A stretch of 64,000 bases of DNA from Nitrosopumilus sp. (GTDB taxonomy: Archaea > Thermoproteota > Nitrososphaeria > Nitrososphaerales > Nitrosopumilaceae), in assembly GCA_965204345.1 (NCBI GenBank), contig OZ241981.1, positions 672,001 through 736,000 of the forward strand. Reading direction: 5' to 3'. The notes beneath the pieces are model-generated. The model did no database searches. It was not told where the DNA came from and saw only the letters and a program-made list of their open reading frames with translations. Position numbers and translations under genes: made by a program. This document shows positions 24,096 to 50,952 of the stretch, piece by piece; within the stretch, counting starts at the first letter, position 1, and each line of letters opens with the position of its first letter.

Positions 24096-24250
24096 CCTCC
24101 TATAAAGAATGGACCCCTAAATTTTAGATCTCAGTATTTTTAGGCTAAATTTTGCCCAATTAACAGATACCTTTTTGATCCCATATCTACAAGTAATGAA
24201 CCACTTGTTCCTTTTATGCAAATCGACATCTTCCGTAGGAGAAAGAAAAA

Positions 24251-28137: not shown

Positions 28138-28223
28138 AGAGTGTAATTGCTCCTTACCATACTTTAAGAGTATTTCAACAAGTAGATTTTTTAACCAAAT
28201 TCATATTTTCAGAGGGATAAATA

Positions 28224-29062
28224 ATGATGAAAACAGAATTAAGATCTAAATTAGACCAGATTAAAGATAAAGTTGGAAAACCATATTTTAGTTCAGGTAA
28301 CGTACTGCTCTACAAAATGGATTGTACAGAGTTCATGGAATCCTTGAATTCAAATATTATTGATCTTACCATTACATCACCTCCATATAACATTGGAAAA
28401 GAATATGAAAAAACTGTTAAAAATGAAGATTATTTAGAATGGTGTGAAAAATGGCTGAATCAAATTTATCAATCTACATCTCAGTTTGGAAGTTTTTGGT
28501 TGAATTTGGGATATTTTGAGTTCCTGAAAAAGGAAAATGCGTTCCAATATCATATTTACTTTGGGATAAATCTCCTTTTTATTTTCTGCAGGAAATCGTC
28601 TGGAGTTATGGTGCAGGCGTTGCGACAAAAAAATATTATTCGCCTAGAAATGAGAAATACTTGTGGTACGTAAAAAATCCCAATAGATATATTTTCAATT
28701 TAGATGATGTACGAGACAAAAATGTCAAATATCCAAATCAGAAGAAGAATGGAAAACTAAAATGTAATCCACTCGGAAAAAATCCAAGCAATGTTTGGAA
28801 CATTCCTAAAGTTACATCAGGAAGAAATCGTTCTTCAGCAGAAAGAGTGGATCATCCTGCACAATTCCCAATTGCAATTCTAGACAGAATTATCAAGGCA
28901 TCTAGCAATAGGGATGACTTGATCTTTGATCCTTTTATAGGCTCAGGAAGTGTTGCAGTTTCTGCAATTCAAAATGACAGAATGGTAGTTGGTTGTGAAA
29001 TTAATGAAAAATACCTAGAAATTGCAAAAGATAGAATCAGAGAATTTCTAAAGTTCAAGTAG
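28224..29062 (+). pseudogene. Beta-class amino (probably N4-cytosine) DNA methyltransferase, frameshift at ~28520
   Basis: ITSPPYNIGKEYE (motif IV) in 28224..28673; HPAQFP and DPFIGSGS (motif I) in 28661..29062. One missing base joins them (…YFE/VPEKGKCVPISYLLW…). Confidence 0.85.
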
Positions 29063-29628
29063 TTTCAAAGTTTCAGCCTCTGAAGACAAATTTGCTTTCT
29101 GGCCTGTAGCTTTGCTTTGACCCCTCCAGTCAGCATGATCCAACCAACCAAACCGAATCTTTATAATTTTAGGTTTTGTATTTTTCTTTATAGGCTGATT
29201 ATTTATTGCCAAATAATAACCAGATTTTTTCTTTTTTACATTAGAACTTGCTTGTGCGTAACTTCTATTTCCAAAAATTTTATTTGGATTAGAGGATGTT
29301 TTTATTTCTATAGAAAAAGTCTCATCAGTTAAACAAACCAGATCTTTATCTGAAGATGTTTTTTCACTCTGCCATAGTTTAGGATATTTTTTTTCAAAAT
29401 GCAATGAAATTAATTTTTGAAGAAGAAATCCAAGCATTTGTTGGCTAGGAAAGATATCTTCTCCTATTTGTAATTGGGTATACTAGTTTTTAGTATGGAA
29501 TTCCAAGATTCCAAAATCACTTTTTTTAATTCGTCTGTGGAAACAGGATGTTTTTTGATAAGATTTTTGATAATTTCTTCCCATTTATCTGAATTTTTGT
29601 TTGTATATGGGGAAAACTCAATAGTCAT
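29048..29628 (-). pseudogene. ScaI-family type II restriction endonuclease with two frameshifts
   Basis: SPYTNKNSDKWEEIIKNLIKKHP / VILESWNSI / LQIGEDIFPSQQMLGFLL...DKDLV...SIEIKTSS...IFGNRSYAQ...SGYYLAIN...IRFGWLDHADWRGQ; converges on the MTase. Confidence 0.75.
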
Positions 29629-30030
29629 ATACTAATCTCTTCTAGTCGTTTTTGAGATGCTAGATGTCATTTTTTTATTGAAACGCTCATATTTTTTTGA
29701 ATTAGAAGAGCTGCAAAACTAGATGTAAAAATTGAATTGTGAATTAGTTAAGATCTCCTGTCGTAACAATTCTAAAAGAATACAGGATTAACCGTACAAA
29801 AAAGGACACACTGCAGCAGATAAAGACATTCCTTTTGGCAACAAACATCATTTCTAATAACATACGATAACTTTTGGAATAATCATAAAAAAAAGAGACG
29901 TCATGTATCCTCAGGGCAGGTTTGGATTTTATTAATTAAATTCATGCAATGCTTGCAATATTTTAAATTCGATCATATTATTGTCAAATTTTTGAGATGA
30001 AAAACACAATGTACATCATGTAATCTTTGA

Positions 30031-30855
30031 TTATCTGACTAGTATGTTTCTACGTGACCTTCTTCTAATTACAATTAATATCGTAATAACCGGCATTAAA
30101 GCCATCACTAAAACCAGGATTCCTATTGAGACATAGTCATTTACAAATAATTTTGTATCAAGCCATGCCTTTGGTAAGATTGTAAGGAGATCACCGCCAG
30201 AAAAATCCTCAATGGTTCCAATTGCCAGGCTATACTTGCCTCCCTGGTTTTTTTCATCCATTACAATGATGAAATATTTTCCATCAGCAGGAATTTGACT
30301 TTTAACCTCTTGTCTTTCCCAGTATGTTACCTGACCAAAGGGCTCATAGAATTCATTTCCCGGAAAGTTTCCCTCATACAGAAATTTTTCAGTATTTGGT
30401 TTTTCAGTCAAGTCAGACTTGTTGCTTTCAAATATTTCAGAATTCATTAGAACCAGTGATGGGGAATATTCCTCCAATCCTCCAATCTTTGGAACTACAA
30501 TGCTTGCATAAAACGAGTCTCCCTGCTTTGCATCAAATGAGTAAAATTTGGCCTCGTTTGGTCCCAAATTCTCATAAATTGCCCATGAAATCTTGTGATC
30601 AGGGATTTGTAATGCAGAATCATAGCTTGTATGCGTGTTATCATGATTGATTAATTTGTGCCCATATGCCGGACTAGTTGAAACAACTGCAAGGATAAAA
30701 AACATGATCATAATTTTTTTCACAGTTTTCTTACTTGGAATCAGTATTTTAACTCCAAGAAAAATTTCCCAGTTAGCACTAGTCTGAATGCCATCATAAC
30801 ATATGTGAAAAATTTGCAGCTGCCACAAAAATATGGTTTTGTTACAAAAATGCAA
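30031..30855 (-). CDS. Secreted/membrane-anchored hypothetical protein (true start probably ~30710)
   Basis: Signal-like MIMFFILAVVSTSPAYGH, FYEPFGQ motif, C-terminal TM. Confidence 0.7.
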   Translation of the reverse strand: MHFCNKTIFLWQLQIFHICYDGIQTSANWEIFLGVKILIPSKKTVKKIMIMFFILAVVSTSPAYGHKLINHDNTHTSYDSALQIPDHKISWAIYENLGPNEAKFYSFDAKQGDSFYASIVVPKIGGLEEYSPSLVLMNSEIFESNKSDLTEKPNTEKFLYEGNFPGNEFYEPFGQVTYWERQEVKSQIPADGKYFIIVMDEKNQGGKYSLAIGTIEDFSGGDLLTILPKAWLDTKLFVNDYVSIGILVLVMALMPVITILIVIRRRSRRNILVR

Positions 30856-31579
30856 TGAATGTAAAAGAGAATTCCAAGTGTGGATTTTTGATTATTGTTC
30901 CAAGTCTATAATTCAGAGAACAAAGAGATGAAAGTGCTTTTGACCAATAGTATCCAAATGATCTATCCTGATATATCTTTTAAGCAGATTTTGTTCATAA
31001 TTAATAATCGTGAAAAAAAGCAGAGTCAGTAATTGCTGCACTTTGAGAACTCTTTGCACATGAGAGCGCTAGAATACTTTGGTCTTGCCAAAGAAAAGTC
31101 TACAGTAAGATAGTATAGCAGGCAAGAGCCGTACAACTGCATTTAGAGGTATCAAGATGTTGGATATGACATGATTGTACCATCAGGCAAAGTCAAGTCT
31201 CCCACTTGAAAAACTGACCTGAAAAATCCATTAAACAAAGTAATCCAAGTTATCAAACGTGCAAATTGCAGACAGACAAGCTATATGCAAAAATATCCTA
31301 CTGCCAAATAGAGTATAGCTAGACACAGATGCGCTAAATGCTAGGAAAAAAACTTTTCAGCAACAAACTTGGATTAGCTAAAAATATGAACACTGAAATG
31401 TCTTTACAGTAACATCAGCAATCTGATTTTCATTTGTCTTTTTTTGAGTCTAGATGGTCAAAAATCACTCTATTTTTTTACAAAAAGTAACCTGATCCAT
31501 ACTGAGAGATTGAATATGGAAAAATCCATCTCTTGCAAGTCACAGATATGTTAGGATTTGAGTCTCTGACTGCTGGTTT

Positions 31580-32566
31580 TCATCTGTTCCCAATTAACTC
31601 TAGCAGCTCATCTGGAAGGCTGCCAAACTTTTCATTGTATTCTTTGATCCTCTTCTCGGTAATCTCTGACTCTATGCCATCATTGACAATCCGATGCGCA
31701 ATTCCTCTTAGCAAGTCCAATTTTTCATCTTCGTCCCAATCTTTTTGAATATCTTCTGGATTGTCAGACTCAAAGAAGGCATCAATGGATTCAAATCTCT
31801 TTTCACTCATTTTCTTGCCAAATTCATAGATGGATTGTCTCCATGGATCCAAAGGAATGACGCAAAACTCGTCTAGCTGGAGACTGGCAACAATGTCGTC
31901 TTGGTTGAAGGATTGATGCATTTCATCATTTTCAACATTTGTGCAAAGCAAATAATCAACGTCTTCCATGATCTCATCTGTGCAAGTGTTTCCATGCAAT
32001 GTAGTTGATGCGGTAAAGAACCCGTCATTGGATGCTACAGTTACTGTATAATGAATTCCGGATTTGAATCCGCGTTCATCTATTATGAGCAGCTCGGTAG
32101 GATACTGGGAGTATTTTTTGCTAAACATTGCAAATATTGGCTCGTCAAGAAACTTTTTCAGATGTGCTGGAATCTCCTCTGGAATGTTGCATATTGGAAA
32201 TGGCTCATCACCTTTTGGAATCTTGATTTCAGAAGAGTCTCTGAACGGAAAATTACGACTTTCAATGCCGGTCTTTGGATCAGAGAGGTCAACTATCACT
32301 TTTGCGACATTCATATTCAGTGAATCAGATGCAATCTGTCCTATCTTTTCTTCCATCAATGTGGTTTGCTCACGGAATTTTTCCTCATTGCCGCTATTTT
32401 TTTGGATTGCAGCCTGCATGTTGATTTCATTTAGGAGCTCTGCATCATTTTTTATTATTTTTGTGTCATTTGCAGAAAATGTGTTACTGCTCTCAAGAAG
32501 CAATACTGTAGAAAATACCACAGCTACTATTGCAATTGCACATATTATCAAAAGCTTGGCATTCAT
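31580..32566 (-). CDS. Acidic secreted hypothetical protein
   Basis: N-terminal signal anchor; 328 aa. Confidence 0.7.
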   Translation of the reverse strand: MNAKLLIICAIAIVAVVFSTVLLLESSNTFSANDTKIIKNDAELLNEINMQAAIQKNSGNEEKFREQTTLMEEKIGQIASDSLNMNVAKVIVDLSDPKTGIESRNFPFRDSSEIKIPKGDEPFPICNIPEEIPAHLKKFLDEPIFAMFSKKYSQYPTELLIIDERGFKSGIHYTVTVASNDGFFTASTTLHGNTCTDEIMEDVDYLLCTNVENDEMHQSFNQDDIVASLQLDEFCVIPLDPWRQSIYEFGKKMSEKRFESIDAFFESDNPEDIQKDWDEDEKLDLLRGIAHRIVNDGIESEITEKRIKEYNEKFGSLPDELLELIGNR

Positions 32567-32821
32567 TTTTTATTCCAGCAGTTCATACATAATGTCACTT
32601 GTAAATAGTTAAGTCTTTTCCAATCAATCATGCTATACATACAGGAATCCGTTTTCGTCTGTGTACAGGCCAAATGCAGAGTATGTTTTTCCAATAGCAT
32701 AATTGAGAATACTTGTAACTACTCATATCATTTGATATTCCTAATCTAACTTTCTTTCTAATGACATAGAGTGCACAGAACCAACATTACTATTCTTATA
32801 TGCTGAAGTCTTTTCAGTATA

Positions 32822-33019
32822 GTGATGGCTACAAAATACAGTATACGCGTCAAAAAAGACGGAAGATTTTATGTGGGATACTCTCTAGGGATTCCTCAGG
32901 CCCGAGGGCAAGGAAACATCAAAAAAGAAGCAATAGAGGACACAAAAAAAGCCATCAAACTGTGCAAAGGCTTTTTGAGAGAAGAAAAGATAAAGTACGC
33001 CAAGCTAGTCAACGTTTAG
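32822..33019 (+). CDS. HicB-like antitoxin
   Basis: KDGRFYVGYSLGIPQARGQGNIKKEAIEDTKKAI fits the HicB N-domain pattern. Confidence 0.7.
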   Translation: MMATKYSIRVKKDGRFYVGYSLGIPQARGQGNIKKEAIEDTKKAIKLCKGFLREEKIKYAKLVNV

Positions 33020-33200
33020 GTTTGAGCCTTCCAACAAGGATGAAAGGGGTTGCAAATGCCTTGGCAACAAGTTCTTCTCATTGCCAGCCAAAAAAATTGG
33101 CAAATATGTCTATAGGACAATTTAGAAGACATATGGTTCTAGTTCTTAACACATGCCCGAGTCAAGTTTTTACGTATATTCTTTGTATAGATTGTGACAT

Positions 33201-34046
33201 ATGGATATCACAAAGGATACAGAAAATATACGCAAGGGGCTCTCAAATAGGGAAGCTGCGATATTAAGCATACTTGCCAAGGATGGCAAATCAATCATAG
33301 GATACAAGGACATCTCAAATGCCATAGACATGTCTTATCAAAATGCCAGAAAGACTGTAGAGAGATTATCCAAGAAAAAGTGGCTGATACCAGTAGCAAA
33401 TGGAAAGTACCTTATCTCGCCATTAAGTGCAGGAATGGAATCTGAATACACAGAACATGAATTTGTCATGGCATCCAATCTTGCAACAGGCAAGCAACAT
33501 TACATTGCATATTGGACTGCCTTGAACCACTATGGATATACGGAGCAGACTCCATTTACTGTCTTTGTTGCAACTACTTCGAGAATAACAGACACTAGTG
33601 TTCACGGGGTAAACTATAAGTTTATCACGATAAATAAAACAAAATTCTTTGGTACAAGGAATCACTTTATTGGAAATAAGAAAGTTATAGTTTCAGACAA
33701 AAACAAGACAATGGCAGATGCCTTGGATCATCCAGAGCATTGCGGCGGAATAGAAGAGGTTGCAAAATGCCTGTGGAATGCAAAAGACGACATATCATTT
33801 GAAAAGATTGTCAGTTACTCAAAAAAAATACAAAACAGCACAGCAATCAAAAGACTCGGATACCTGATTGACGTACTTGAGATAGATGTGCCTTTTTCTT
33901 TGTATGATCAGATGCGTGAGTCAATTGGTTCCGGATATTCCTTGCTGAATCCTAATTCAACAAAAAATAAAGGATCCAATTCAAAGTGGAGGCTGTTTGT
34001 AAACACGTCATCAGATGCCATACTTGAGGCAAAATCTACGACATAG
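33201..34046 (+). CDS. Type IV TA AbiEi-family antitoxin / transcriptional regulator
   Basis: N-terminal wHTH; YIAYWTALNHYGYTEQTP; VSDKNKTMADALDHPEHCGGIEEV; IKRLGYL. Confidence 0.85.
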   Translation: MDITKDTENIRKGLSNREAAILSILAKDGKSIIGYKDISNAIDMSYQNARKTVERLSKKKWLIPVANGKYLISPLSAGMESEYTEHEFVMASNLATGKQHYIAYWTALNHYGYTEQTPFTVFVATTSRITDTSVHGVNYKFITINKTKFFGTRNHFIGNKKVIVSDKNKTMADALDHPEHCGGIEEVAKCLWNAKDDISFEKIVSYSKKIQNSTAIKRLGYLIDVLEIDVPFSLYDQMRESIGSGYSLLNPNSTKNKGSNSKWRLFVNTSSDAILEAKSTT

Positions 34047-34085
34047 GTATTTGAAATTCTTGCCAGTAAACAGATACGGTAAGAA

Positions 34086-34520
34086 TTAAGTTTTTGTAAA
34101 GTTTTCTGCAGGGAAAGACATGTTTTTTGCTATTTCTAAATTGAGTGCACTGGCAATTTCTTTTATTCTAGCAATATTTGCAGTTTCATAATCAGTTGAT
34201 TCATATCGTTGAATTTGTTGTTCTGCTAATCCAATTAATTCTCCTAATTTTTTTTGGCTTAAACCAAGAGAGATCCTTGCCTTGATCAAAGTTTTTGGTA
34301 GTTGATCAATAGAGTTTAATTCAAAAACTGGAACCATTCCAGATTTTAAATCATCGTATTCATCAATTTCTTGTTTAAGATCAGTCATTTGACTTTGTAT
34401 TGCACTTTTTTCTAGTTCAGTTAAGGGAGTAGTATCCTTCTTTTCTAGATTCAAGAGGGTTTCTTTAAATTTGTCCAAATGAGATTTGGTTATTTTGTAT
34501 TGTCTTTCATTTTTTATCAT
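34086..34520 (-). CDS. XRE-family HTH protein (HigA-like; possibly 3'-truncated)
   Basis: MIKNERQY N-terminus; LIKARISLGLSQKKLGELIGLAEQQIQRYE. Confidence 0.8.
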   Translation of the reverse strand: MIKNERQYKITKSHLDKFKETLLNLEKKDTTPLTELEKSAIQSQMTDLKQEIDEYDDLKSGMVPVFELNSIDQLPKTLIKARISLGLSQKKLGELIGLAEQQIQRYESTDYETANIARIKEIASALNLEIAKNMSFPAENFTKT

Positions 34521-34610
34521 GATAATTCCTCCAAATCAATTGATATGATTCCCTTAGGATCACCGGATTCTTTGTCTTGTTGAAAAAAATCCATCATAGT
34601 TCCAGACCCT
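34517..34610 (-). pseudogene. C-terminal remnant of an upstream partner gene (DUF6932-like)
   Basis: ...MDFFQQDKESGDPKGIISIDLEELS* with an ATGA overlap into the HTH gene. Confidence 0.4.
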
Positions 34611-34954
34611 CAAGATTTGATTTTGGTAATAATCGGTTCCAAACCGTTCTGAAATCTCTTCCCAAGTTGCAGTATGTATTCTGTGAGGTGAATTTTCTTG
34701 TCTGTTGAATTCTGCAATCATTATAACACAACATTATTGTTGTGTTATTAAAATATAAAAAAATTTTGAACTGTCAGGCGTAAAAAACAGGGTTTGTCAA
34801 TTTCATTGTTATTAATAGAATATTAACAATATATGAAAAATTTGTGTAACTTTAATTTTTGAAACTAGATCTCAATCTTTGATACATGTAAGACTAGAAA
34901 GAATTTTCCACATTGTTCAATCTTAGGGGCTTTTCAAGTGTAATAATCTAGAAA

Positions 34955-35064
34955 CCACACTATGAGATTTTTTGATAATTGTGGTTTGGTAATTTTTAAG
35001 AAAATCATCTCTTGCAATTTGCCGTTAGATTTCAGTAATTAATTTATCAAAATTTATCAAACCC
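34955..35064 (+). mobile_element. MITE-like element, copy 9 (right two-thirds)
   Basis: TGAGATTTTTTGAT...TAAGAAAATCATCTCTTGCAATTTGCCGTT...CAAAATTTATCAAACCC; preceded at ~34910 by ACATTGTTCAATCTTAG (the second end motif). Confidence 0.7.
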
Positions 35065-35765
35065 AAAGTACAGAAACAAGAAGACAAGATTATATCATTT
35101 AACTAAATTTGCAAAACATCATAAACAAAATCAATTGATTCTATTCTGAATATTGAAAATGCTAAACTAAGAAAGAATCAAAGCGACGGAGTTTAGGCGT
35201 AAAATCACTGATTTTGATAAATAAAATAGGGCAAAACACACAAAGAAACTGATGATTACTGTACTTTTGTTCATTAGATCTAGTGTTTGGTCATTGGGTT
35301 TGCCTTCAAGATGAAAAATTCAGAAAAGAAATCAGACTTGCAAATAAGATGATATTATCAAATCTTTACCGCGTATCTGGCTGGTATGTTTGTTTGACAA
35401 AAGATAAGCACTTGTAACATAGTCTATTAGATCACATATAGGTCAACACTCAAAGTTCTCTTTAATATAACATCTTAATTGCTGACAAGAAATGAAATTC
35501 ATCATACGCTGCACAATAAAGCGACAATTATGATAGATTCAATGTATATTTACAAACTTCAAAACCATGTCACGTATTCTTAAGTGTCCATAGACAGTAT
35601 TAATGATCATGTGTTTGTAAAGATCATCCCGACCATTGGTGGATGTTCGACTCGGCGCAAAACGTTGAAATTCATGTAAAATACGTCGTTGGTTTGTATC
35701 TGTAGATTCTACCCCAAATACAATTAATCCAACAGAATATAAGATCTTATGAATTGTTTTATCTA

Positions 35766-36116
35766 TTAGAACCCAAATATTATTGAATAAACTAATGTGG
35801 TAGTAGTTATGAGTAATGCTCCAATTGGAACAAGAATCTGAACTGCATCTTTAAACCTTTTAAATCGAATATTGTTAAGAATTGTTTCTCCAAAATCTGT
35901 AAGTATCAAATTATCATTTTCACCTGCGGTTATCATTTTTTTATTTCTGTACACATCTTCATGATCTTCTCCTTCCATTTCAAAGCCATAGGACATTTTA
36001 TCTACATATTTTTGAAATAGTTCTGGAGTAGGTTTGTTGTTTTTCACATATTTCAAAACAATAGAAACATGTAATTCATCCCATTCATTCATCTCTCTTT
36101 TTTTGTCATTAATCAA
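35766..36116 (-). CDS. Hypothetical protein with C-terminal TM
   Basis: LILTDFGETIL (wHTH wing-like) followed by a hydrophobic tail. Confidence 0.5.
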   Translation of the reverse strand: MINDKKREMNEWDELHVSIVLKYVKNNKPTPELFQKYVDKMSYGFEMEGEDHEDVYRNKKMITAGENDNLILTDFGETILNNIRFKRFKDAVQILVPIGALLITTTTLVYSIIFGF

Positions 36117-36171
36117 TAATTAATCTATAATGTTGATTCTTTTTACACATATTGTTCTACTTTACAATTAG

Positions 36172-36885
36172 ATGAACAAGATAATCATTATTACTGATAT
36201 TCATAATAATTACATGACAGCAGAAAAAAAATTATTTCCAAAGAAAATCCTAACAAAATCATATTCTTAGGAGACTATTTTGATGATTTTGACGATACCA
36301 TGCAAGATGCAATAAACACTGCAAAATGGCTCAAAAAATCATTAAAACAAGAAAATAGAACACATCTGATTGGAAATCATGATTTGAGCTACATGACAAA
36401 TATCCAAATCTCAAGTGTTCATGATATAAAACATACAAACATAAAACAATTAAAGAGATCGATATTAAATGGAATAAATTATTGATACATTACTGGATTG
36501 ATGATAAATGGTTGTGCACTCATGCAGGATTCTCAAATGATTTTTTTTCAAGCAACAATGAAACAAAAAATATGATTCTATCCAAAAAATATTAGATTCT
36601 TCAAAAAAGGATTTAGAAAAAATTGATGATGAAGATTATATTCATTCATTTTTTCAGGTAGGATTTTCTCGTGAGGGCTCAAATGTAGTTGGAGGACCGT
36701 TGTGGTGTGATTATAACGAATTTGTAGATGTTCCTAGAATAAATCAGATTTTTGGGCATACTCCAAATCAATTTGTACGACACAATGAAAATAAGAATTC
36801 TGAACACCATTGTATAGATACCAAACTAAATCATTATGCTATATATCAAAAAGATACTGTGCAAATCAAATCCATATCCAGTTAA
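36172..36885 (+). pseudogene. Calcineurin-like metallophosphoesterase with several frameshifts
   Basis: TDIHN, LGDYFD, IGNHD, THAG, PLW, FGHT and CIDT spread across frames. Confidence 0.85.
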
Positions 36886-37063
36886 CAATTAGCATGGAAG
36901 AACAGCATGGAAAATATTTTAACCGATGATTGATTATTGCATTTAGAGCAAATCTTTGTTCTTGGTGGATGTTGAGGTGTCAATCGCTTTGCAGATTACA
37001 TTCCAGTCCAAAACTTGAGTTGCTTTGCAACTCAGGCTCTTATTATTTGGGAATTTCCAAATT

Positions 37064-38602
37064 TTACATGTAATACATGTACTTGTTTTTTGGTGTAGAT
37101 TCAGAAGGCATCTCTCTTAAAATTTTTCCAACCTGTCTTGAAAAATGTAAAGTAATAGGTAAATTACTTGCAAAATTTGCATTATTCCAATTTAGTTTAG
37201 TCAGAGCTAAAATTTCTGCACTAATTTTTTCAGGTAATGTATCTCCTATATGTTGAATTATTTCTAAAGGTCGTGGAACATGAGGTCCAGGATAAAGTTT
37301 CATGAATGGGATGTAGCCATTGGTATACAATAACCAACTTTTATCCGGCAATGTAATCATGGTTCCTCTTAATACTGCATGATATCCTTCTCTAAACAAT
37401 CGAATATTCCTTGATCTATTTAGTATTGCAACAAGATCAAATCTTGGAATATCTCCAATTGCTTTTTTGAAACCACTTATTTCTGCATCTTCAAATTTTG
37501 ATGATTTGTGAATTACAACTCGTGTGGGAGATCTACCGCCTGTTTGTTTTGTAAACAAATCGATTGCTGCTTTGATTAATTTTTCAGCTGCCTCTTCTTT
37601 CAAATGAGGTGCATGTCCTCTAGTCCAAGGAAATCTTTCGCCTCGAATAACTAAGCCTTCGCCTTCAGGTGTAAACACTTGAGCCAAACTAGTGCCCATA
37701 CCTCCACCATAAATTTCCTTAGCTTTGAAAAAAGATATTCCAACAAAACAGGTATCTGTTGTAAATAAAGTAGGTCTCCATAATCGTCCTCCAGATTTAT
37801 ACAAAAGTGCAATTGCTAAATTCCATGCAAATGTGGCATCATCCTGTAGTCCTTTTTGTCCTATTTTTCTCTCTTTTGCAGTAATCACATCTAGCGTGTC
37901 TGGAAGAATAAATTGTGTTAAAAGATCGAATTTCATTGCTTGAGCTTTTAGTAAATGATGAAAATTATCTGCACTAATGCTGATGAGATATCTTTCTCTT
38001 TCTTTTTTGTATTCTTCTGGCATAAAATCAAACATAGTACTTTGATCTACACTTACAAGAAGATGTTTTTTTTCAGCGTTTGATTTTTTTCGTCTGCCTC
38101 TAGTTCTTACATCTTTATCTGAAATACATAACCTCATCAATTCTTTTGGAGGTGCACAAATAACAATATTTGGAACTTCCTCTCGTTCTGCAATGTTAGA
38201 AAGATACGCAATGAAAATTTCAACACCTGTAGCAATTCGTTCTTCAACTTTTGGGATATTTTCCAGTGCTTCTATCTCTTTTGTAGTAATTGTTTGATAC
38301 CATTTTTCATTTGTGATTATTTCACATTTGAATGGATGTGATGATGAAAATCCCGGAAAATCAGGAGTCCATGTAGGATTTTTGTCAGGTCCTTCAATCG
38401 GTGTTTGTATTCTTTCAATAATTGCTTTAGTTTGTTCTATTGTTGTTTTATCACCAATTATTCCTACACGAATAGAATTTTTTGTTATTGAATATGGACC
38501 ATACAATGAAATTCCTGTTTTAGGATCAATTGATGGGAATGAGCCTCCAAAAAGAAGTTCAGGTTCTGAGACAATAGTAGTTTTAACTTCACTAAACGTC
38601 AT
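37064..38602 (-). CDS. ago: Short prokaryotic Argonaute (MID-PIWI), catalytically inactive
   Basis: EPELLFG...DPKTGISLYGP; MID NFHHLLKA...LTQ...LLYKSGG; PIWI CFVGISF, RVVIHKSS, LRGT, YPGPHVPRPL, ILALTKLNWN, PITL. Catalytic Asp positions are replaced; no N/PAZ domains. The likely start at 38602 overlaps the TIR-APAZ stop. Confidence 0.93.
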   Translation of the reverse strand: MTFSEVKTTIVSEPELLFGGSFPSIDPKTGISLYGPYSITKNSIRVGIIGDKTTIEQTKAIIERIQTPIEGPDKNPTWTPDFPGFSSSHPFKCEIITNEKWYQTITTKEIEALENIPKVEERIATGVEIFIAYLSNIAEREEVPNIVICAPPKELMRLCISDKDVRTRGRRKKSNAEKKHLLVSVDQSTMFDFMPEEYKKERERYLISISADNFHHLLKAQAMKFDLLTQFILPDTLDVITAKERKIGQKGLQDDATFAWNLAIALLYKSGGRLWRPTLFTTDTCFVGISFFKAKEIYGGGMGTSLAQVFTPEGEGLVIRGERFPWTRGHAPHLKEEAAEKLIKAAIDLFTKQTGGRSPTRVVIHKSSKFEDAEISGFKKAIGDIPRFDLVAILNRSRNIRLFREGYHAVLRGTMITLPDKSWLLYTNGYIPFMKLYPGPHVPRPLEIIQHIGDTLPEKISAEILALTKLNWNNANFASNLPITLHFSRQVGKILREMPSESTPKNKYMYYM

Positions 38603-40016
38603 TGTACTCAACTCCTTTGACATCTTCGTCCAAGTCTTCATCAGTAATTATTATTTCTGAATCATCTTCTTCTTCAATTAGCGGTGGAGGTTCTTCAATT
38701 ACGTCCGGAAGTGGTTTATGATCCCCAAAAACACCATATGACGTTTTGAAAGATAAAGGTCTGAAATTAATTTCAATAGGAGTATCCACAGATCCCATTG
38801 TTATTTTTGTTCCATCTGACAAAACCCACGCCCAGAATCTCATCTCATCGAATTCAATATCATTTTTTAAACGTGATTGCAGTCGGGTACTCAATACTGA
38901 ACGTCTTTTACCCTTAATCAAAACAGAACCATCTATTGAAAATTCCCATCCTGATTCAATTTGTAAAAATAACTCATTTCCTAAAATTTGAAATCGTAAT
39001 CCAGCTGCTCTATGTCTATAAAAATAAGTTGTTAACTCACCTGTTTCTTCATTTTTCTTGGAATATGGAATAATTAATCCACGTTTCCCTTTTCTGACAT
39101 GTGCAGTCCAAGAAAGTTTTTCATTCGTAATGATTTTTTTGTCTCCATAGAACTGTTTACTAGTTTTGTCAAAATACAATCCAATCTTTCGAGTAAATCT
39201 TTTTGTTTCACTAGACAAAAGATCAATAAGCCATCTTGATTTATCATCATGACTGAACCATTCTTTTACATTGACAGATTTTATTTCATGTGTATCAACA
39301 GCTAACCGTAATTTATTTACGCCTTCATTTAAATTTGAAAAAGTATACAAATATTTTTCTCGTAACACAAATGGTTCAATATCATTTCCAAGTTGTCTAT
39401 ACACTGCACTTTTTTCCCAAAATATTGTTGGTGCAGCCCAAATTACTGAAGGTAACTTTGTTACAGCAAATAAATTTGTGTGAATCACCTCATCTATTTT
39501 GTCTGGTAATGATGTTGTATTTTCTAAAAGTAGTGAAGGGCCAGATTCTGTAACTATCTTACTGCCAGGTGTTTTTCCACCTCTAGGTAATGGTTCACCT
39601 CTTATTGTACTTAGTAATCGTTGCATTTCTGTTTTGAATTTAGATTTTTCTCGCAAATCAATTCTATTTCGTATTGCAAGTAATGGTGGAACTTTACATG
39701 GTTTTACAAGTATGGGTATTACCCGCCCTAATCTACCAGAAGGATCAGCAAGTAATGATGCAGCTCTTTCAGCAATAGGCCATTCAGCATTTAGTGCTTC
39801 AGGGGACAATATCAAAGCAAAGAATTTTGCTTTTTTCAAACCTTCATCAACACTATTGATAAAATTATCTCCAGGAACAATATCCCATGGAGCAAAGAAA
39901 ACACGAATATTCCTATCATCTATTTTTTCATTTTCCAGATATTCTCCTATCTTTTTAGCAATTTCTTTATCTGCTTGATTATATGAAATGAATATGTCTT
40001 TTTCTCTTAAATTCAT
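38592..40016 (-). CDS. TIR-APAZ protein
   Basis: TIR: DIFISYNQAD, VFFAPWDIVPGD, LILSPEAL..EWPIAE (catalytic Glu position), VIPIL, RIDL. The ~300-aa C-terminal region starting HTNLF is inferred to be APAZ from its position next to a short pAgo. Confidence 0.88.
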   Translation of the reverse strand: MNLREKDIFISYNQADKEIAKKIGEYLENEKIDDRNIRVFFAPWDIVPGDNFINSVDEGLKKAKFFALILSPEALNAEWPIAERAASLLADPSGRLGRVIPILVKPCKVPPLLAIRNRIDLREKSKFKTEMQRLLSTIRGEPLPRGGKTPGSKIVTESGPSLLLENTTSLPDKIDEVIHTNLFAVTKLPSVIWAAPTIFWEKSAVYRQLGNDIEPFVLREKYLYTFSNLNEGVNKLRLAVDTHEIKSVNVKEWFSHDDKSRWLIDLLSSETKRFTRKIGLYFDKTSKQFYGDKKIITNEKLSWTAHVRKGKRGLIIPYSKKNEETGELTTYFYRHRAAGLRFQILGNELFLQIESGWEFSIDGSVLIKGKRRSVLSTRLQSRLKNDIEFDEMRFWAWVLSDGTKITMGSVDTPIEINFRPLSFKTSYGVFGDHKPLPDVIEEPPPLIEEEDDSEIIITDEDLDEDVKGVEYNDV

Positions 40017-40232
40017 AAAATTATACCTCGTATATGCTTTTTATGAGATTTGTATTCATTTAGGAGTGTTATGACCATGAGATCACTTATTCTATTTTAG
40101 ATCCTCAAGTATTGGATCGATCAATTCTGTTAACAATGTAGTGAGATCATTTGATCCAACATTCATCGTACTGTTACAATAAATTTCGTAAGGCATCAAA
40201 TCAAGGTAATTGTGTAATTACCTAAATCCAAA

Positions 40233-41336
40233 TTAAGAACCTTCATTATACAGCCTCAATTTTTCTTTAATGCTTCTGGCGTCTGCCTTTATCTCTTTTG
40301 TCCTCATGGCCTCAAGCAGTCTTATTGGCTCATCTATTGTCTTTGTTTTATGTGCAACTATGCTGCGTAATATGCGCAGTATGCCAAGTATCTTGCCGCC
40401 AAACTTGTACTTTCGTGCAAGAAACAGCAACACATCATAGTTTATTTTTGGATTCTTTGCGATAATTATTGGGATGGCCTCCATTCTTCTTGCATTACCA
40501 TGAAACATTATTGATGATATTACATACTCTATGCAAAACAGTTTTCCTTGTTTGACTGTGGGACCTATCTCAGTATATCCAAACCTTGCAAGATTGAACA
40601 CAATGTCTTCCTCAGGTATTTTGGCAGGGTTTATCTCGTGTAAAATTGCAGATATCTTGATTCCTTTCTCTGTTATGCTTTTTACTTCCAGCCAAAAGCC
40701 CTGGGGATGCAGTATTGCAATTTTGTTGTGTAGCATCTCCCTAATCGTGTTGTGCTCATTTGATTTGAGCAAGTCAGCAAACATTTTATTTTCCAGTGTA
40801 AGGTAATCTATCCTTATGTTATGCATTTGTTGTAAGGTTTCCATTATTGTATGAATTCCAATCTTTGTCTCTTCAACTGCCTTTTTGTTGTCGGATTTTT
40901 TTAGATGAATCAGTACTTCTGCTTTGTTTAGCCTTGTGTTTTTTTCAGGATATATTAATAGTACGTGGGATATCAGAGCAACATTACGCAGATGCATGTC
41001 AATTTTTAGCATGAGCATCTGCATCTCTTGTTTTCCTTTCAGAAAATCATGCTTGCGCTTGAGCTCCATCTCTGCAAGCATACCAATTATCATATAGTTA
41101 TCAAAGTTAGGCGATACCAGCAATGACCTGCCAGCCTTTGTGAGCATCAGAATTTCTTCTTCTCTGTCAAGTTCCTTGATCTTTTCATGTATGTTGGCAT
41201 AATATGCTCTACCATGTATTTGATCTATACTTTTTGTAATCTCATTGATAGACATGGGGATGCCCAATCTTCTTGACAATATATCCAGTATTCTGTATGT
41301 TGCTTCATCCATTGTTCTTACTATTATAATAATCAA
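40233..41336 (-). CDS. wHTH-containing hypothetical protein (likely start 41312)
   Basis: YRILDILSR...MSINEITK...YYANIHEKIKEL...LTKAGRS wHTH; the middle region loosely resembles a degenerate nucleotidyltransferase fold. Confidence 0.65.
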   Translation of the reverse strand: MIIIIVRTMDEATYRILDILSRRLGIPMSINEITKSIDQIHGRAYYANIHEKIKELDREEEILMLTKAGRSLLVSPNFDNYMIIGMLAEMELKRKHDFLKGKQEMQMLMLKIDMHLRNVALISHVLLIYPEKNTRLNKAEVLIHLKKSDNKKAVEETKIGIHTIMETLQQMHNIRIDYLTLENKMFADLLKSNEHNTIREMLHNKIAILHPQGFWLEVKSITEKGIKISAILHEINPAKIPEEDIVFNLARFGYTEIGPTVKQGKLFCIEYVISSIMFHGNARRMEAIPIIIAKNPKINYDVLLFLARKYKFGGKILGILRILRSIVAHKTKTIDEPIRLLEAMRTKEIKADARSIKEKLRLYNEGS

Positions 41337-41484
41337 CTATAATATTATAGTTTTTACTATATATATCAAATTCTTCTGACCAGACTCGAACCAACATACA
41401 CATCATTCCTGTCATCACCGCGGAGCTCTAAATAACAAGACGTCGACGCATGTCTCATTATAGTTGATGGCAAAAATAAATGGA

Positions 41485-42558: not shown

Positions 42559-43257
42559 TCACGAGATCAATTTCAACCAACAACTATCCTTGCCGTTTGA
42601 TAGCCAGCTAAACTCATGCAGTCTTAGAATATCATTAATCTCACGCCAGATGTGTTTATCGATCCAGCGTTTTGGTGTTATTTTTATGGAATCACCCTCA
42701 TTGACTATGGATACCTTCTTGATTCTCTTTCCCAGATTGTTTACAAAGTTCACTTTGATTCCAGCCTGTTTTATCAAATCCAGATATTTGTCTTGACCTA
42801 AATTCAAGTCAATATTTGCAGCTTGAGCAGGTGTCCTGCCATCTAATCCCTGATGGGGCTTTACAAAGTTATGATTGATTTTGAGCAGATCTGCAAAGTT
42901 TTGTACTGATTCGTCATTGCCCAGCCCACGTCTAGCCTTGAGTCTTTCTCTTATCTCATTATGATAACGCTCAATGGGTCGATTCACAAAACCATCCTTA
43001 ATTGATCTAGTTTTGATATGGGCTACTCTGTCTTGAAATTCTTTTCTTATTGCCTCTTGATATGAGTTTAAAGAGTCAGTTAACACATAGTTTGGGTTCT
43101 TGGCAACTACCTTCTTGCCGCTTGCAATAATCTTTCTTGCATCTGCAATCTCTCTTTTCTTTGAGACCACAGTAGCTATCAGAAATCGAGTCTTTGAATC
43201 AATTATGCTCCAAAGCCAATCATGGAACCCCTTTATAACATCGATCTCTAGCGACAT
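42559..43257 (-). mobile_element. IS6-family-like DDE transposase, 5'-truncated
   Basis: WLWSIIDSKTRFLIA, VLTDSLNSY, NRPIERYHNEIRER, HNFVKPHQGLDGRTPAQAA; the N-terminal DNA-binding part is missing. Confidence 0.8.
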
Positions 43258-43575: not shown

Positions 43576-43653
43576 CTTTGTAAACTATTGCATTAGAATC
43601 AGAATCAAACTTTGTAAACTATTGCATTAGAATCAGAACCAAACTTTGTAAAC
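43576..43653 (+). repeat. 34-bp tandem duplication at the junction with the second transposase fragment
   Basis: CTTTGTAAACTATTGCATTAGAATCAGAA(T/C)CAAA starts at 43576 and 43610; CTTTGTAAAC again at 43644. Confidence 0.85.
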
Positions 43654-43836
43654 AATCTGGGAAAGAGAATCAAGAAGGTATCCATAGTCAATGAGGGTGA
43701 TTCCATAAAAATAACGCCAAAACGCTGGATCGATAAACACATCTGGCGTGAGATTAATGATATTCTAAGACTGCATGAGTTTAGCTGGTTATCAAACGGC
43801 AAAGACAGCTGCTGGCTCAAGATGATTAACGTTTAA
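43642..43836 (+). pseudogene. Inverted second copy of the transposase 3' end
   Basis: NFVNNLGKRIKKVSIVNEGDSIKITPKRWIDKHIWREINDILRLHEFSWLSNGKDSCWLK, identical to the end of 42559..43257. Confidence 0.85.
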
Positions 43837-49620: not shown

Positions 49621-50159
49621 AGTATGGGTAATTCGTTAAGATCTTTGTAACTTGCGTTATATTCTGATTTAAGACCTATTTTCAAAGAGAAGAGATCACT
49701 TATTCTCCATTTCTTGAATATGTATGAGTTGGGATTGTTTGGAGATGGTTTTAAGAACAGTTGGATTAACAAGTGATACCCATCAGCACTTATTTTATTG
49801 CCATTGGTATAATAAAAAACTCTTTGAGTAGATTTAAAATTATCATCCTTTGAAGATGTTTTTATCTCAATAAACACTATATCGTTTTGTATTTTTAATC
49901 TTAAATCTGGATAACCTACATGTTGACTGTATGGCAATAATTCAACATCCTTGTGATTTTTGATTATATCTTTGATTTCTTGCTCTAATGCTCTGCCTAA
50001 GTCATTAATACGCTTATCTTCATACCTAGTGTATTTAGACTTACTAAGAATAGTATTAAGACCTTGAGAAAGTATTTCCAAAATAGGATGATTCTTTTTT
50101 ATCTCCACTACAGATTTGCCACATGATGTACTTACCAATTCTGAAAATATCATTGACAC
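49608..50159 (-). CDS. PD-(D/E)xK nuclease, probable type II restriction endonuclease
   Basis: LGRALEQ...GYPDLRL...FIEIKTS; overlaps the MTase stop. Confidence 0.75.
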   Translation of the reverse strand: MSMIFSELVSTSCGKSVVEIKKNHPILEILSQGLNTILSKSKYTRYEDKRINDLGRALEQEIKDIIKNHKDVELLPYSQHVGYPDLRLKIQNDIVFIEIKTSSKDDNFKSTQRVFYYTNGNKISADGYHLLIQLFLKPSPNNPNSYIFKKWRISDLFSLKIGLKSEYNASYKDLNELPILCNS

Positions 50160-50952
50160 AATAAAACCTCATTTTTTAATCTTTGATTTGCAATGCGGAC
50201 ATATTCTTTATCAATTTCTGTTCCAACACAATTCACACCCAATCTTTTACAGGCCAATGCAGTCGAACCAATTCCCATAAATGGGTCATACACAAGCATA
50301 TTTTTTGAGATGCCGTGTAACATGATGCACATTTGGGGCAGTTTTGTTGGAAATTCGCATGGATGTTTTATATTTCCGTTTTTGGTCTCATAAGGAATAA
50401 ACCAAACATTGCCTCTGTCACGTTTTGTATTCCCATGCTTCCATCTTGTCAGGTTTGTCTTGTCTGCATATGGAACACCCACAGAAAGTTTGTCCAGCTT
50501 CACGCTGCCTTTTTTTGTAAAATGAAAGACATACTCATGGCATTGATTCACAAAACGAGGCGTGTTTATAGGTTTGAAATGACCTGCTACAAAGTCAGAT
50601 TCAGGGATCGATATGGACTTTATCCAATGAATGACATTTTGTGTCTCAAAAATTTCGGATAGGGCATGGTGAACGTCAAAAGGTATGTTAGGATTTTTTG
50701 CAGTATAGCCAATATTGAGAAAGAATGAACCGTCAACATCAAGTAAATTGTAGATCCCCCCCCCCATATTTTCACCCATTCTAGGTATTCGTCATAACCT
50801 AGATTGTCAGAATAGCTATTGTATTTTTTTCCTAGATTGTATGGGGGTGAGGTAACAACAACATCAAGTTTTTTACCAGAATAATTTTTCATAAAATTTA
50901 AACAATCATCATGAGTGATTTGCTGTGTGGGTCGTGTCAATTTATCATCCAA
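50150..50952 (-). pseudogene. Beta-class amino DNA methyltransferase split by a G10 tract (C10 at 50756-50765)
   Basis: [13 protein letters not shown] upstream of the tract; [28 protein letters not shown] and DPFMGIGST downstream in another frame. Confidence 0.85.

What the first reader, a model, noticed from the sequence alone, without database searches (positions are those of the whole stretch)
37064..40016. Intact TIR-APAZ + short Argonaute operon in a thaumarchaeote, possibly not canonical SPARTA
Seen: overlapping genes, a TIR domain with the catalytic Glu retained (EWPIAE), and a ~512-aa MID-PIWI Argonaute with an H-K-Q-K type MID pocket and a degenerate catalytic tetrad. Known: SPARTA (short pAgo + TIR-APAZ) depletes NAD(P)+ after RNA-guided DNA recognition and was characterised in bacteria; the studied archaeal short pAgo from Sulfolobus uses different partners. 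Inference from recalled motifs: the PIWI signature CFVGISF...TSLAQVF...GEGLVIRG and the effector-first gene order look more like the nuclease-associated (SPARDA/S2B-type) clade than characterised SPARTA Argonautes. This may be an independently assembled TIR-Argonaute system in ammonia-oxidising archaea. APAZ also ends in an unusual acidic tail (EEEDDSEIIITDEDLDED).
Basis: partly seen in the sequence, partly recalled or inferred. Interest (0 to 1): 0.85.

Follow-up and report, generated by a model that had tools for sequence, protein, structure and literature searches.

The report
Archaeal TIR-Argonaute defence operon, S2B type
An ammonia-oxidising archaeon carries an intact two-gene Argonaute defence system whose cell-killing part is a TIR enzyme, built on the Argonaute scaffold normally paired with nucleases; this variety is already noted in print but has never been tested.

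Summary
Two intact, overlapping minus-strand genes encode a 474-aa TIR-APAZ protein (38592-40016) and a 512-525-aa MID-PIWI short Argonaute (37064-38602/38641).

Profile scores for both pAgo and APAZ, PDB sequence hits and ML trees all place the pair outside canonical SPARTA (clade S2A), within the radiation that holds the nuclease-type S2B systems. A sister position to S2A is not formally rejected (p-AU 0.06).

Three of its other points do not hold:
- Effector-first gene order is universal.
- The acidic C-tail is a known autoinhibitory feature of SPARTA and SPARDA.
- The lineage is not special to ammonia oxidisers. It is spread over many archaea and bacteria, and is sporadic in this phylum (9 of 401 genomes, 0 of 23 in the genus).

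A TIR subgroup inside S2B, and effector exchange, were already described in 2023, so this is a new, archaeal, untested member of a known kind.

Most likely function: RNA-guided recognition of invader DNA, oligomerisation, TIR NAD(P)+ hydrolysis and abortive infection. The operon lies in a low-GC defence and mobile-gene island next to tRNA-Val.

The parts
38592..40016 (-). TIR-APAZ effector gene, 474 aa, intact
   Evidence: ORF. Pfam TIR_2 E 1.7e-24. PADLOC PNTD1-PNTD2 (APAZ) models, E 1.5e-33. 46 homologues at 29-100% identity, 44 of them full-length at 33% or more, and 45 of 46 carry a TIR Pfam domain.
39612..39995 (-). TIR domain (residues 8-135). The catalytic Glu E83 is the codon at 39768-39770.
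   Evidence: Pfam. EWPIAE at residues 78-83. E83, W79, S71 and D7 are invariant in 33 homologues.
38682..39506 (-). APAZ domain (residues about 171-445), including a basic helix around 366-385
   Evidence: AF2 pLDDT above 90. Foldseek TM 0.72-0.76 to SPARHA and SPARDA APAZ. Predicted contacts with the pAgo at residues 168-182, 343-354, 380-392 and 420-436. The basic stretch was read.
38595..38681 (-). Acidic C-terminal tail (residues 446-474), a putative autoinhibitory plug
   Evidence: 14 D/E and 1 K/R in the last 30 residues. Disordered in the AF2 model. An acidic stretch follows the invariant PP443-444 in nearly all of the 33 aligned homologues, longest in the closest relatives. The role is inferred from CrtSPARTA and XauSPARDA.
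37064..38602 (-). Short pAgo gene (MID-PIWI), 512 aa from the conserved MTFSEV start. The ORF is open up to 38641.
   Evidence: ORF. Start inferred from homologues. PADLOC pAgo_I PDLC02376 E 1.8e-143. PDB hits to short pAgos.
37796..37960 (-). MID 5'-phosphate pocket residues H228, K232, Q243 and K282 (ORF numbering)
   Evidence: Positions. K, Q and K are invariant in 18 homologues.
38592..38602 (-). 11-nt overlap between the end of the TIR-APAZ gene and the pAgo start codon (translational coupling inferred)
   Evidence: Sequence read.
40017..40232 (-). 216-nt A+T-rich intergenic region upstream of TIR-APAZ, a putative promoter (inferred, not tested)
   Evidence: Sequence read. No promoter scan suited to archaea was run.

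Best explanation
This is an intact, horizontally acquired two-gene abortive-infection system: a short catalytically inactive Argonaute plus a TIR-APAZ effector. It belongs to the TIR-bearing part of the S2B-type short-pAgo radiation, not to canonical SPARTA (S2A).

Proposed working, with the basis of each step:
1. The APAZ half binds the PIWI lobe of the pAgo to form a heterodimer. This is predicted here, not shown.
2. The acidic C-tail lies in the basic guide/target channel and keeps the complex off. This is inferred from CrtSPARTA and XauSPARDA.
3. The MID pocket (H-K-Q-K) takes up 5'-phosphorylated small RNA guides derived from transcripts. This is inferred from SPARTA, SPARDA and SPARHA.
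4. Pairing with complementary invader ssDNA expels the tail and exposes Ago-Ago interfaces, and the complex oligomerises. This is inferred, and the geometry (tetramer or filament) is unknown.
5. The clustered TIR domains form composite active sites around E83 and hydrolyse NAD(P)+. The cell stops or dies before the invader spreads. This is inferred from TIR biochemistry and SPARTA.
For: Identity and integrity:
- Both ORFs are full-length against their homologues (98-100% coverage).
- TIR_2 scores E 1.7e-24 and the catalytic Glu is invariant in 33 of 33 homologues.
- The APAZ fold is confirmed.
- The MID K/Q/K residues and the C-terminal YM are invariant in 18 of 18 homologues.

Pairing:
- The genes overlap by 11 nt.
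- 76 of 80 related loci have an APAZ-type partner gene directly upstream.
- Complex prediction gives a score of 0.81 with a best control of 0.00 out of 3 controls. That mark was reached by 116 of 157 solved complexes and by 2 of 215 mismatched pairs. The runs agree in at least 81% of contacts and the partner's pLDDT is at least 75. Like complexes are solved, so the pass may come from memory and shows likeness only.

S2B-type placement:
- PADLOC pAgo sub-model scores are 477 bits on the S2B-type model against 330 on the S2A-type model, calibrated with anchors.
- The APAZ hits the SIR2- and REase-PNTD models and no TIR-PNTD model.
- PDB bit scores are SPARHA 261, SPARDA 223-233, SPARTA 165-183.
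- phmmer with the window's TIR and APAZ halves finds 54 and 84 of 95 partner proteins respectively, but none of the 4 canonical S2A anchors at E<=10.
- The concatenated pAgo+APAZ tree separates the S2A anchors (SH-aLRT 100) from the other 42 rows (88).
- Holding all TIR systems as one clade is rejected: p-AU 0.0003, or 0.013 with rows of unknown effector left free.

Horizontal origin and defence context:
- 9 of 401 genomes of the phylum sample have a match, 0 of 23 in the genus, and the best is 42% identical.
- The island holds Fic, broken R-M genes, AbiEi, an IS6/IS240 transposase and an HNH protein, next to tRNA-Val.

Tail role: published passages.
Against: - No biochemical or expression evidence exists for this locus or for any member of its clade. 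No paper among the 20 listed by the search is about an S2B-type TIR system, judging from titles and abstract starts.
- The backbone of the short-pAgo tree is weak. A tree that holds the window's clade as sister to canonical S2A is not rejected: p-AU 0.589 on pAgo alone, where the constrained tree was 4.19 lnL units better than the quick free tree, and 0.055-0.061 on pAgo+APAZ.
- The careful tree search never finished.
- Rows for the subset trees were chosen by me after I had seen the first tree.
- Six of the 47 concatenated pairs rest on equal contig lengths, not on seen adjacency.
- The island contains several broken genes, so the operon could be on its way out.
- TIR domains can also make signalling nucleotides rather than simply deplete NAD+.
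Confidence: 0.75

Rival explanations
1. It is a divergent but genuine member, or the sister lineage, of SPARTA clade S2A. Under this reading the TIR-APAZ fusion is ancestral to S2, and nuclease or Schlafen domains later replaced TIR in some branches. The system then works exactly like SPARTA, with a tetramer of heterodimers.
For: - It has the same architecture, the same catalytic Glu and an acidic tail.
- Foldseek's best full-length hits are SPARTA TIR-APAZ chains (8qlo_A, E 8.6e-20).
- AU tests do not reject window clade + S2A anchors as one clade (p 0.589; 0.055-0.061).
- TIR is the commonest partner among the nearest relatives, in 44 of 72 partners scanned.
Against: - Both proteins score better on S2B-type than on S2A-type profiles.
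- There is no detectable sequence similarity of either TIR or APAZ to 4 canonical S2A partners at E<=10, while a TIR of a STAND-type protein (P0165) scores 116 bits.
- In the structural alignments, identity is 13-17% to SPARTA chains against 18-22% to SPARHA and SPARDA APAZ.
- One clade of all TIR systems is rejected.
Confidence: 0.15
2. The TIR domain is a signal generator (for example cyclic ADPR isomers) or acts on nucleic acids, rather than depleting NAD+. A separate effector elsewhere in the genome, or the adjacent 367-aa protein of unknown function, would then execute the response.
For: - The TIR domain belongs to the broad TIR_2 family, which is shared with many architectures. 9895 proteins match at E<=0.001, and 101 of the best 150 lack APAZ by my HMM.
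- An uncharacterised 367-aa gene lies 216 nt upstream on the same strand.
Against: - The 367-aa protein has no Pfam or PADLOC match. It was not found next to any of the other 91 fetched loci by tblastn.
- Koopal 2022 passages state that the APAZ protein is the only protein specifically associated with short pAgos.
- All characterised pAgo-linked TIR and SIR2 effectors deplete NAD(P)+.
Confidence: 0.05
3. The operon is a non-functional passenger in a decaying island, or an assembly artefact that places foreign DNA in an archaeal contig.
For: - Neighbouring genes are broken: two split N6/N4 methylases, a truncated ScaI-like endonuclease and a frameshifted phosphoesterase.
- The conserved flanking genes lie 0.5-1.2 Mb apart in complete genomes of the genus.
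Against: - Both genes are intact, with all conserved residues.
- The contig is 2.04 Mb, carries archaeal amoA, and belongs to a genome that is 99.7% complete.
- Logan contigs of 3 runs (one study, possibly the source of the assembly) carry 35547-40322 or 35547-41354 as one piece with 0-2 differences.
- The G+C of the operon (0.33-0.34) equals that of much of the window.
Confidence: 0.05

Closest known systems
TIR-effector subgroup of short-pAgo clade S2B (Lisitskaya et al., bioRxiv 10.1101/2023.06.08.544223; passages read)
   Same: A TIR domain is fused to an S2B-type APAZ next to a short pAgo. Those authors already suggested exchange of TIR and SIR2 effectors between clades.
   Different: That description rests on RefSeq phylogeny only. 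I could not see its figure or member list, so I cannot say whether archaeal or this clade's members were in it. No member has been characterised, as far as the search shows.
SPARTA (clade S2A; MapSPARTA, CrtSPARTA, BabSPARTA)
   Same: The operon has TIR-APAZ upstream of a short pAgo, with a catalytic Glu, an acidic C-tail, a heterodimer and probably NAD(P)+ depletion after RNA-guided DNA recognition.
   Different: - The pAgo scores 165-183 bits to SPARTA pAgos, against 402-422 for a true S2A relative.
- TIR-APAZ has no phmmer hit to SPARTA chains or to S2A anchors.
- PADLOC's TIR-PNTD models do not recognise it.
- The host is an archaeon.
SPARHA (AcaSPARHA, PDB 9om4) and SPARDA (Nba, Xau, Eae; 9jsb, 9qbl, 9qbp)
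   Same: These are the closest solved pAgos (223-261 bits) and APAZ domains (E 8e-18 for HNH-APAZ; TM 0.72-0.76). SPARDA also has an acidic C-tail.
   Different: Their effectors are HNH or DREN nucleases that act in filaments. Here the effector is a TIR domain, and the activated assembly is unknown.
Schlafen/AlbA_2-APAZ + short pAgo systems of archaea
   Same: They are neighbours in the same radiation. 16 of the 72 partners scanned carry AlbA_2, several of them in Nitrososphaerota.
   Different: The effector domain differs. They are uncharacterised as APAZ fusions, as far as my searches show.
SiAgo/Aga1/Aga2 of Sulfolobus islandicus
   Same: It is an archaeal short-type Argonaute that acts by abortive infection.
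   Different: It lies outside the four short-pAgo clades and uses a membrane effector (review PMC11370952, passages). It is not among the PDB hits at E<=0.001.

Membership tests
Short pAgo system (any clade) | The Argonaute has MID and PIWI domains only, with no N or PAZ domain | tested here: met
   512-525 aa. It aligns end to end with short-pAgo profiles (PDLC02376, model positions 2-455 of 455) and with short-pAgo PDB chains.
Short pAgo system (any clade) | An APAZ-domain protein is encoded in the same operon | tested here: met
   The adjacent gene overlaps by 11 nt. APAZ is shown by profile and by fold.
Short pAgo system (any clade) | The PIWI domain lacks the catalytic DEDX tetrad | not tested
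   The tetrad was not mapped against an active Argonaute here. It is assumed from family membership (Koopal 2022 passages) and from a recalled reading of the motifs GISF and HKSS.
SPARTA, clade S2A | The APAZ partner carries a TIR domain with a catalytic Glu | tested here: met
   TIR_2 E 1.7e-24. E83 is invariant.
SPARTA, clade S2A | The pAgo falls in the S2A phylogenetic clade | tested here: inconclusive
   - It is not nested in S2A. The anchors form their own clade with 99-100 support.
- The S2A-type profile scores 147 bits below the S2B-type profile.
- A sister position is not rejected (p-AU 0.589; 0.055-0.061).
SPARTA, clade S2A | The APAZ is of the TIR-APAZ group (Ryazansky group IIa; PADLOC Aga_TIR-PNTD models) | tested here: not met
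   There is no hit to any Aga_TIR-PNTD model at E<=0.01, while the canonical anchor scores 527 bits. phmmer finds no S2A anchor at E<=10.
SPARTA, clade S2A | Guide/target-triggered NAD(P)ase activity and tetramerisation | not testable with these tools
   This needs biochemistry and a structure.
Clade S2B (SPARDA / SPARHA / SMEK type radiation) | The pAgo and APAZ group with the nuclease-associated systems | tested here: met
   - By profiles: PDLC02376 is best for the pAgo, and the REase- and SIR2-PNTD models are best for the APAZ.
- By PDB scores.
- By trees it lies in the non-S2A group, with support 88-96.
- The backbone inside that group is unresolved.
Clade S2B (SPARDA / SPARHA / SMEK type radiation) | Nuclease effector domain (DREN, HNH or Mrr-like) | tested here: not met
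   The N-terminal domain is TIR. This feature defines SPARDA and SPARHA but not S2B as a whole, which the 2023 preprint says includes a TIR subgroup.

The most novel reading that the evidence does not exclude
In this lineage a TIR NADase has been grafted onto the SPARDA/SPARHA-type pAgo-APAZ scaffold. It would be switched on by target-induced helical filament assembly, as in SPARDA and SPARHA, rather than by the SPARTA tetramer. That would make it the first Argonaute-driven NADase filament and the first Argonaute-TIR immunity shown in archaea, acting against viruses or plasmids of ammonia oxidisers.
Probability: 0.25. Interest if true: 0.6.

Novelty: new member of a known kind. Interest (0 to 1): 0.35.

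Why it matters
Every characterised TIR-Argonaute system (SPARTA) is bacterial and belongs to clade S2A. This pair offers an intact archaeal example of the untested S2B-type TIR variety. It could show whether the activation geometry follows the Argonaute scaffold (filaments, as in SPARDA and SPARHA) or the effector (TIR tetramers).

It also documents that PADLOC's 2023 TIR-APAZ models do not recognise this variety. Surveys built on those models are therefore likely to under-count NADase-type Argonaute defence in archaea.

For the ecology of ammonia oxidisers, it is one more sporadic, horizontally acquired abortive-infection module in a variable island.

Tried and rejected
- Careful IQ-TREE search on 79 pAgos: not finished after three 300-s calls. 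The quick tree was used instead.
- treekit's own AU step on the concatenated set did not finish. I ran iqtree2 on treekit's trimmed alignment and PMSF frequencies instead. A fuller constrained search for the S2A-sister tree timed out, so its p-AU comes from a -fast search and could be higher.
- Empty-site test of the island: the flanking sucD-like and Sbt_1 genes are conserved in the genus (25 of 30 and 27 of 30 genomes) but lie 0.5-1.2 Mb apart in complete relatives. No insertion site could be defined.
- Third component: tblastn of 7 neighbouring ORFs against the other 91 loci found only the HTH protein, in one locus (L005). The 367-aa upstream ORF is therefore not a conserved partner.
- Expression: no RNA holder is listed among the sequencing runs.
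- Run X5 (a sponge metagenome, another study) covers the flanks at 95-99% likeness but shows no cover over about 36.3-40.3 kb, and no contig joins across the gap. This cannot be read as absence.
- Joints with sides under 31 letters (for example 28138 to 41484) were ignored as probable repeats.
- The search of earlier findings returned nothing, both by place and by sequence.
- Mapping of the DEDX positions against TtAgo was not possible, because only the 5 best alignments can be shown.
- Canonical Map, Crt and Bab SPARTA, Nba and Xau SPARDA and Aca SPARHA sequences could not be placed in my trees, because they are not retrievable as stored proteins. Plasmid-borne anchors checked against the PDB or by their annotated partner were used instead.
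- Rows dropped from the trees: L004, L075 and L079 (pAgo under 430 aa). L085 (frameshifted pAgo) was left out of the 79-row and 47-row sets.


Full report
**What is there.** The window has two long minus-strand ORFs at the reported coordinates.
- The upstream gene (38592-40016, 474 aa) has a TIR_2 domain at residues 8-135 (E 1.7e-24).
- Its C-terminal half matches PADLOC's PNTD1-PNTD2 (APAZ) models (best E 1.5e-33).
- An AlphaFold2 model built on 33 homologues has mean pLDDT 77. The APAZ part (about 171-445) is above 90. The linker (145-170) and the last 25 residues are disordered.
- Foldseek matches SPARTA TIR-APAZ chains over the full length (8qlo_A, E 8.6e-20). It matches the APAZ of SPARHA (9om4_A, TM 0.76 to the target, 22% identity) and of SPARDA (9qbp and 9qbl, TM 0.72-0.74). 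The C-terminal region is therefore APAZ.
- The downstream gene (37064-38641 as an ORF) is a MID-PIWI short Argonaute: Pfam Piwi at 223-510 and PADLOC pAgo_I at E 1.8e-143.
- Most homologues start the pAgo at MTFSEV, giving 512 aa. With that start the ATG overlaps the end of the TIR-APAZ gene by 11 nt.
- Conserved residues are in place. The TIR residues D7, S71, W79 and the catalytic Glu E83 are invariant in 33 homologues. The MID pocket is H228-K232, Q243, K282, and the C-terminal YM is conserved.
- I did not map the DEDX positions against an active Argonaute.

**Host and integrity of the contig.**
- The window is part of a 2.04-Mb contig of a genome that is 99.7% complete.
- Archaeal amoA lies on the same contig, about 250 kb away. 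The host is therefore an ammonia-oxidising archaeon.
- The TIR-APAZ gene holds the only TIR_2 domain in the genome.
- Logan contigs of three runs carry 35547-40322 (two runs, 0 differences) or 35547-41354 (one run, 2 differences) as one piece. These runs come from one study and may be the source of the assembly.

**Which kind of short-pAgo system.** No stored copies of the characterised proteins were available, so I used anchors from annotated plasmids.
- L082 (a Rhizobium plasmid, TIR protein plus pAgo) is a true SPARTA relative: its pAgo scores 402-422 bits to the five SPARTA pAgo chains in the PDB.
- L083, L084 and L092 carry longer TIR partners. Two of these have an Mrr-like N-terminus.
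- L086 has a DUF4365 partner, L087 and L090 have SMEK partners, and L091 has a SIR2 partner.

Three lines of evidence agree.
1. Profiles. PADLOC's three short-pAgo sub-models sort the anchors cleanly: PDLC02378 for S2A (666-728 bits), PDLC02376 for S2B (580-587) and PDLC02377 for the SIR2 type (696). The window's pAgo scores 477, 330 and 201 bits on the S2B, S2A and SIR2 models. Its APAZ hits the SIR2-PNTD (114 bits) and REase-PNTD (95 bits) models and no TIR-PNTD model at E<=0.01. The S2A anchor's partner scores 527 bits on the TIR-PNTD model.
2. Pairwise searches. In the PDB the pAgo scores 261 bits to the SPARHA pAgo, 223-233 to SPARDA pAgos, 165-183 to SPARTA pAgos and 90 to SPARSA. The TIR-APAZ protein hits HNH-APAZ (E 8e-18), DREN-APAZ and free bacterial TIR domains, but no SPARTA chain at E<=0.001. 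phmmer with the TIR half finds 54 of 95 collected partner proteins and the APAZ half finds 84 of 95. Neither finds any of the four S2A anchors at E<=10. A TIR from a STAND-type protein scores 116 bits.
3. Trees. In a FastTree of 205 pAgos, a quick PMSF IQ-TREE of 79, an APAZ tree of 47 and a concatenated pAgo+APAZ tree of 47, the S2A anchors form their own long-stemmed clade (support 98-100). All other rows, the window's included, group together (88-96). Inside that group TIR-, Schlafen/AlbA_2-, DUF4365- and SMEK-associated systems are interleaved. A 23-row clade (98) joins two bacterial TIR clades, the nuclease anchors and a second thaumarchaeal TIR clade.

**Limits of the phylogeny.**
- The backbone is weak. 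On pAgo alone, a tree that holds the window's clade together with the S2A anchors is not rejected. It was even 4.19 lnL units better than the quick free tree (p-AU 0.589).
- On pAgo+APAZ the same constraint costs 21.7 lnL units, with p-AU 0.055-0.061. A sister position to S2A therefore stays open.
- What is rejected is one clade of all TIR-associated systems. The cost is 70.9 lnL units with p-AU 0.0003. With rows of unknown effector left free, the cost is 34.9 units with p-AU 0.013.
- The groups were defined by partner domain, but I had seen a tree before naming them.
- I picked the subset rows myself.
- Six of the 47 metagenomic pAgo/APAZ pairs rest on equal longest-contig lengths, not on seen adjacency.

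**Distribution.**
- The pAgo has 573 relatives at E<=0.001 among 7,996 scored candidates. The TIR-APAZ protein has 46 relatives (29-100% identity, 44 of them full-length at 33% or more), and 45 of the 46 carry a TIR Pfam domain.
- The nearest relatives (72-88% identity) are unnamed metagenome proteins.
- Named members of the window's clade come from Bathyarchaeia (L002), Thermoplasmata (L003), a Pacearchaeota MAG (P0067) and a Peregrinibacteria MAG (P0082).
- In 80 related loci from species-representative genomes, 76 have a partner gene directly upstream. Of the 72 partners of 200 aa or more that were scanned, 44 carry TIR_2 (4 of those with an extra HTH), 16 carry Schlafen AlbA_2, 1 carries DUF4365 and 11 have no Pfam domain. 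Five of those 11 are short or cut ORFs.
- In a sample of 401 genomes of the host's phylum, 9 have a pAgo match at E<=1e-20, the host included. None of 23 other genomes of the genus has one, 2 of 56 in the family do, and the best match is 42% identical.
- The system is therefore a sporadic accessory gene pair here, not a trait of ammonia oxidisers.

**Context.** The operon lies in a low-GC stretch (about 24-55 kb, G+C 0.29-0.37) that begins at a tRNA-Val gene (24000-24097). That stretch holds:
- a Fic/DOC gene;
- two split N6/N4 DNA methylase genes;
- a truncated ScaI-like endonuclease gene;
- AbiEi and an HTH gene;
- an IS6/IS240-type transposase gene;
- an HNH-containing protein gene;
- several genes with no Pfam match, two of them also without a PADLOC match.

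The conserved genes on either side are 0.5-1.2 Mb apart in complete genomes of the genus. The island therefore sits at a synteny break, and a simple insertion site cannot be drawn.

**How it most likely works.** By analogy with the solved relatives, the APAZ half completes the pAgo.
- Complex prediction gives a score of 0.81 with a best control of 0.00 out of 3 controls. That mark was reached by 116 of 157 solved complexes and 2 of 215 mismatched pairs. Runs agree in at least 81% of contacts and the partner's pLDDT is at least 75. Like complexes are solved, so this shows likeness only.
- The tail after the invariant PP443-444 is strongly acidic. Homologues in the alignment have an acidic tail in the same place, longest in the closest relatives. 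A lysine- and arginine-rich helix lies at about 366-385.
- In CrtSPARTA an acidic C-tail runs along a basic helix into the guide/target channel and autoinhibits the NADase (preprint passages). XauSPARDA has the same arrangement (preprint passages). I infer the same plug here.
- Guide RNA loading, target ssDNA recognition, oligomerisation and NAD(P)+ hydrolysis by the clustered TIR domains are all inferred. None is shown.
- Whether the active form is a SPARTA-like tetramer or a SPARDA/SPARHA-like filament is open, and it is the most interesting question this locus raises.

**Comparison with what is known, and novelty.**
- Koopal 2022 defined S2A as the TIR clade and S2B as 'various domains' (passages).
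- A 2026 survey of subsurface metagenomes noted archaeal (Bathyarchaeia, Nitrososphaeria) Argonaute-linked sequences with N-terminal TIR2 and AlbA domains, without placing them (passages).
- None of the 20 papers listed by my search for TIR-APAZ, filament, short pAgo and NADase from 2025 on is about such a system, judging from titles and abstract starts.
- The locus is therefore a new archaeal member of a kind that is known from phylogeny but has not been tested. I score it modestly.

Noticed in passing
window 35547-41354: In three runs of one study, the Logan contig piece that carries the operon has about 50-70% of the mean word depth of the pieces on its left (48.9 against 92; 95.9 against 202; 83.8 against 123). 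Loose ends branch off at about 35576-35588 and 41485. The tool warns that contig depth is not a copy number. The pattern could still mean that only part of the population carries this segment.
   Followed up: partly
window 36200-36900 (+): Fragments of a metallophosphoesterase-like gene (GDxxDD..., GNHD..., GHTP motifs) are spread over three reading frames, convergent with the pAgo gene. It looks like a frameshifted pseudogene. This is read from a three-frame translation only.
   Followed up: no
window 28224-29437 and 50150-51021: Two N6/N4 DNA methylase genes are each split into two ORFs. A ScaI-like restriction endonuclease ORF covers only profile positions 61-189 of 192. These appear to be decaying restriction-modification systems in the same island.
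   Followed up: no
window 42577-42750 and 43642-43815: A 174-nt inverted repeat (96.6% identical) lies at and beside the IS6/IS240-type transposase gene (42559-43257). Word depth rises 2- to 6-fold over 41-43 kb in the laid runs, as expected for a multi-copy IS.
   Followed up: partly
window 33201-34046 (+): An AbiEi-type antitoxin gene (PADLOC E 1.9e-79) has no AbiEii-like nucleotidyltransferase ORF of 60 aa or more downstream on its strand. The next gene is a convergent HTH protein (34086-34520).
   Followed up: no
window 21515-22432 and 57176-58267: The conserved genes flanking the island (81-92% identical across the genus) are 36 kb apart here but 0.5-1.2 Mb apart in complete genomes of the same genus. 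This is a synteny break at the island.
   Followed up: partly
loci L023, L032, L034, L041-L043, L046, L049, L051, L055, L058-L060, L065, L078, L081: A mainly archaeal set of short pAgo operons has an APAZ partner with an N-terminal Schlafen AlbA_2 domain (16 of the 72 partners scanned). Two Nitrosotenuis loci (L046, L051) sit on a long branch of their own.
   Followed up: partly
loci L033, L057, L064, L071, L074 (Bathyarchaeia) and L020: These APAZ partners have N-terminal regions of about 160 aa that match no Pfam family at E<=0.001. Three of them were also scanned against PADLOC (L033, L057, L020), which matched only their APAZ part. They may carry an undescribed effector domain in the same radiation.
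   Followed up: no
loci L005, L007, L011, L015 (Acidobacteriota): Here the TIR-APAZ partners carry an extra N-terminal helix-turn-helix domain (HTH_31 / HTH_19 / HTH_3) in front of the TIR domain.
   Followed up: no
window 24000-24097 (+): ARAGORN reports tRNA-Val(CAC) as 98 nt, longer than a standard tRNA, so it may contain an intron. It lies exactly where G+C drops from about 0.44 to about 0.33.
   Followed up: no
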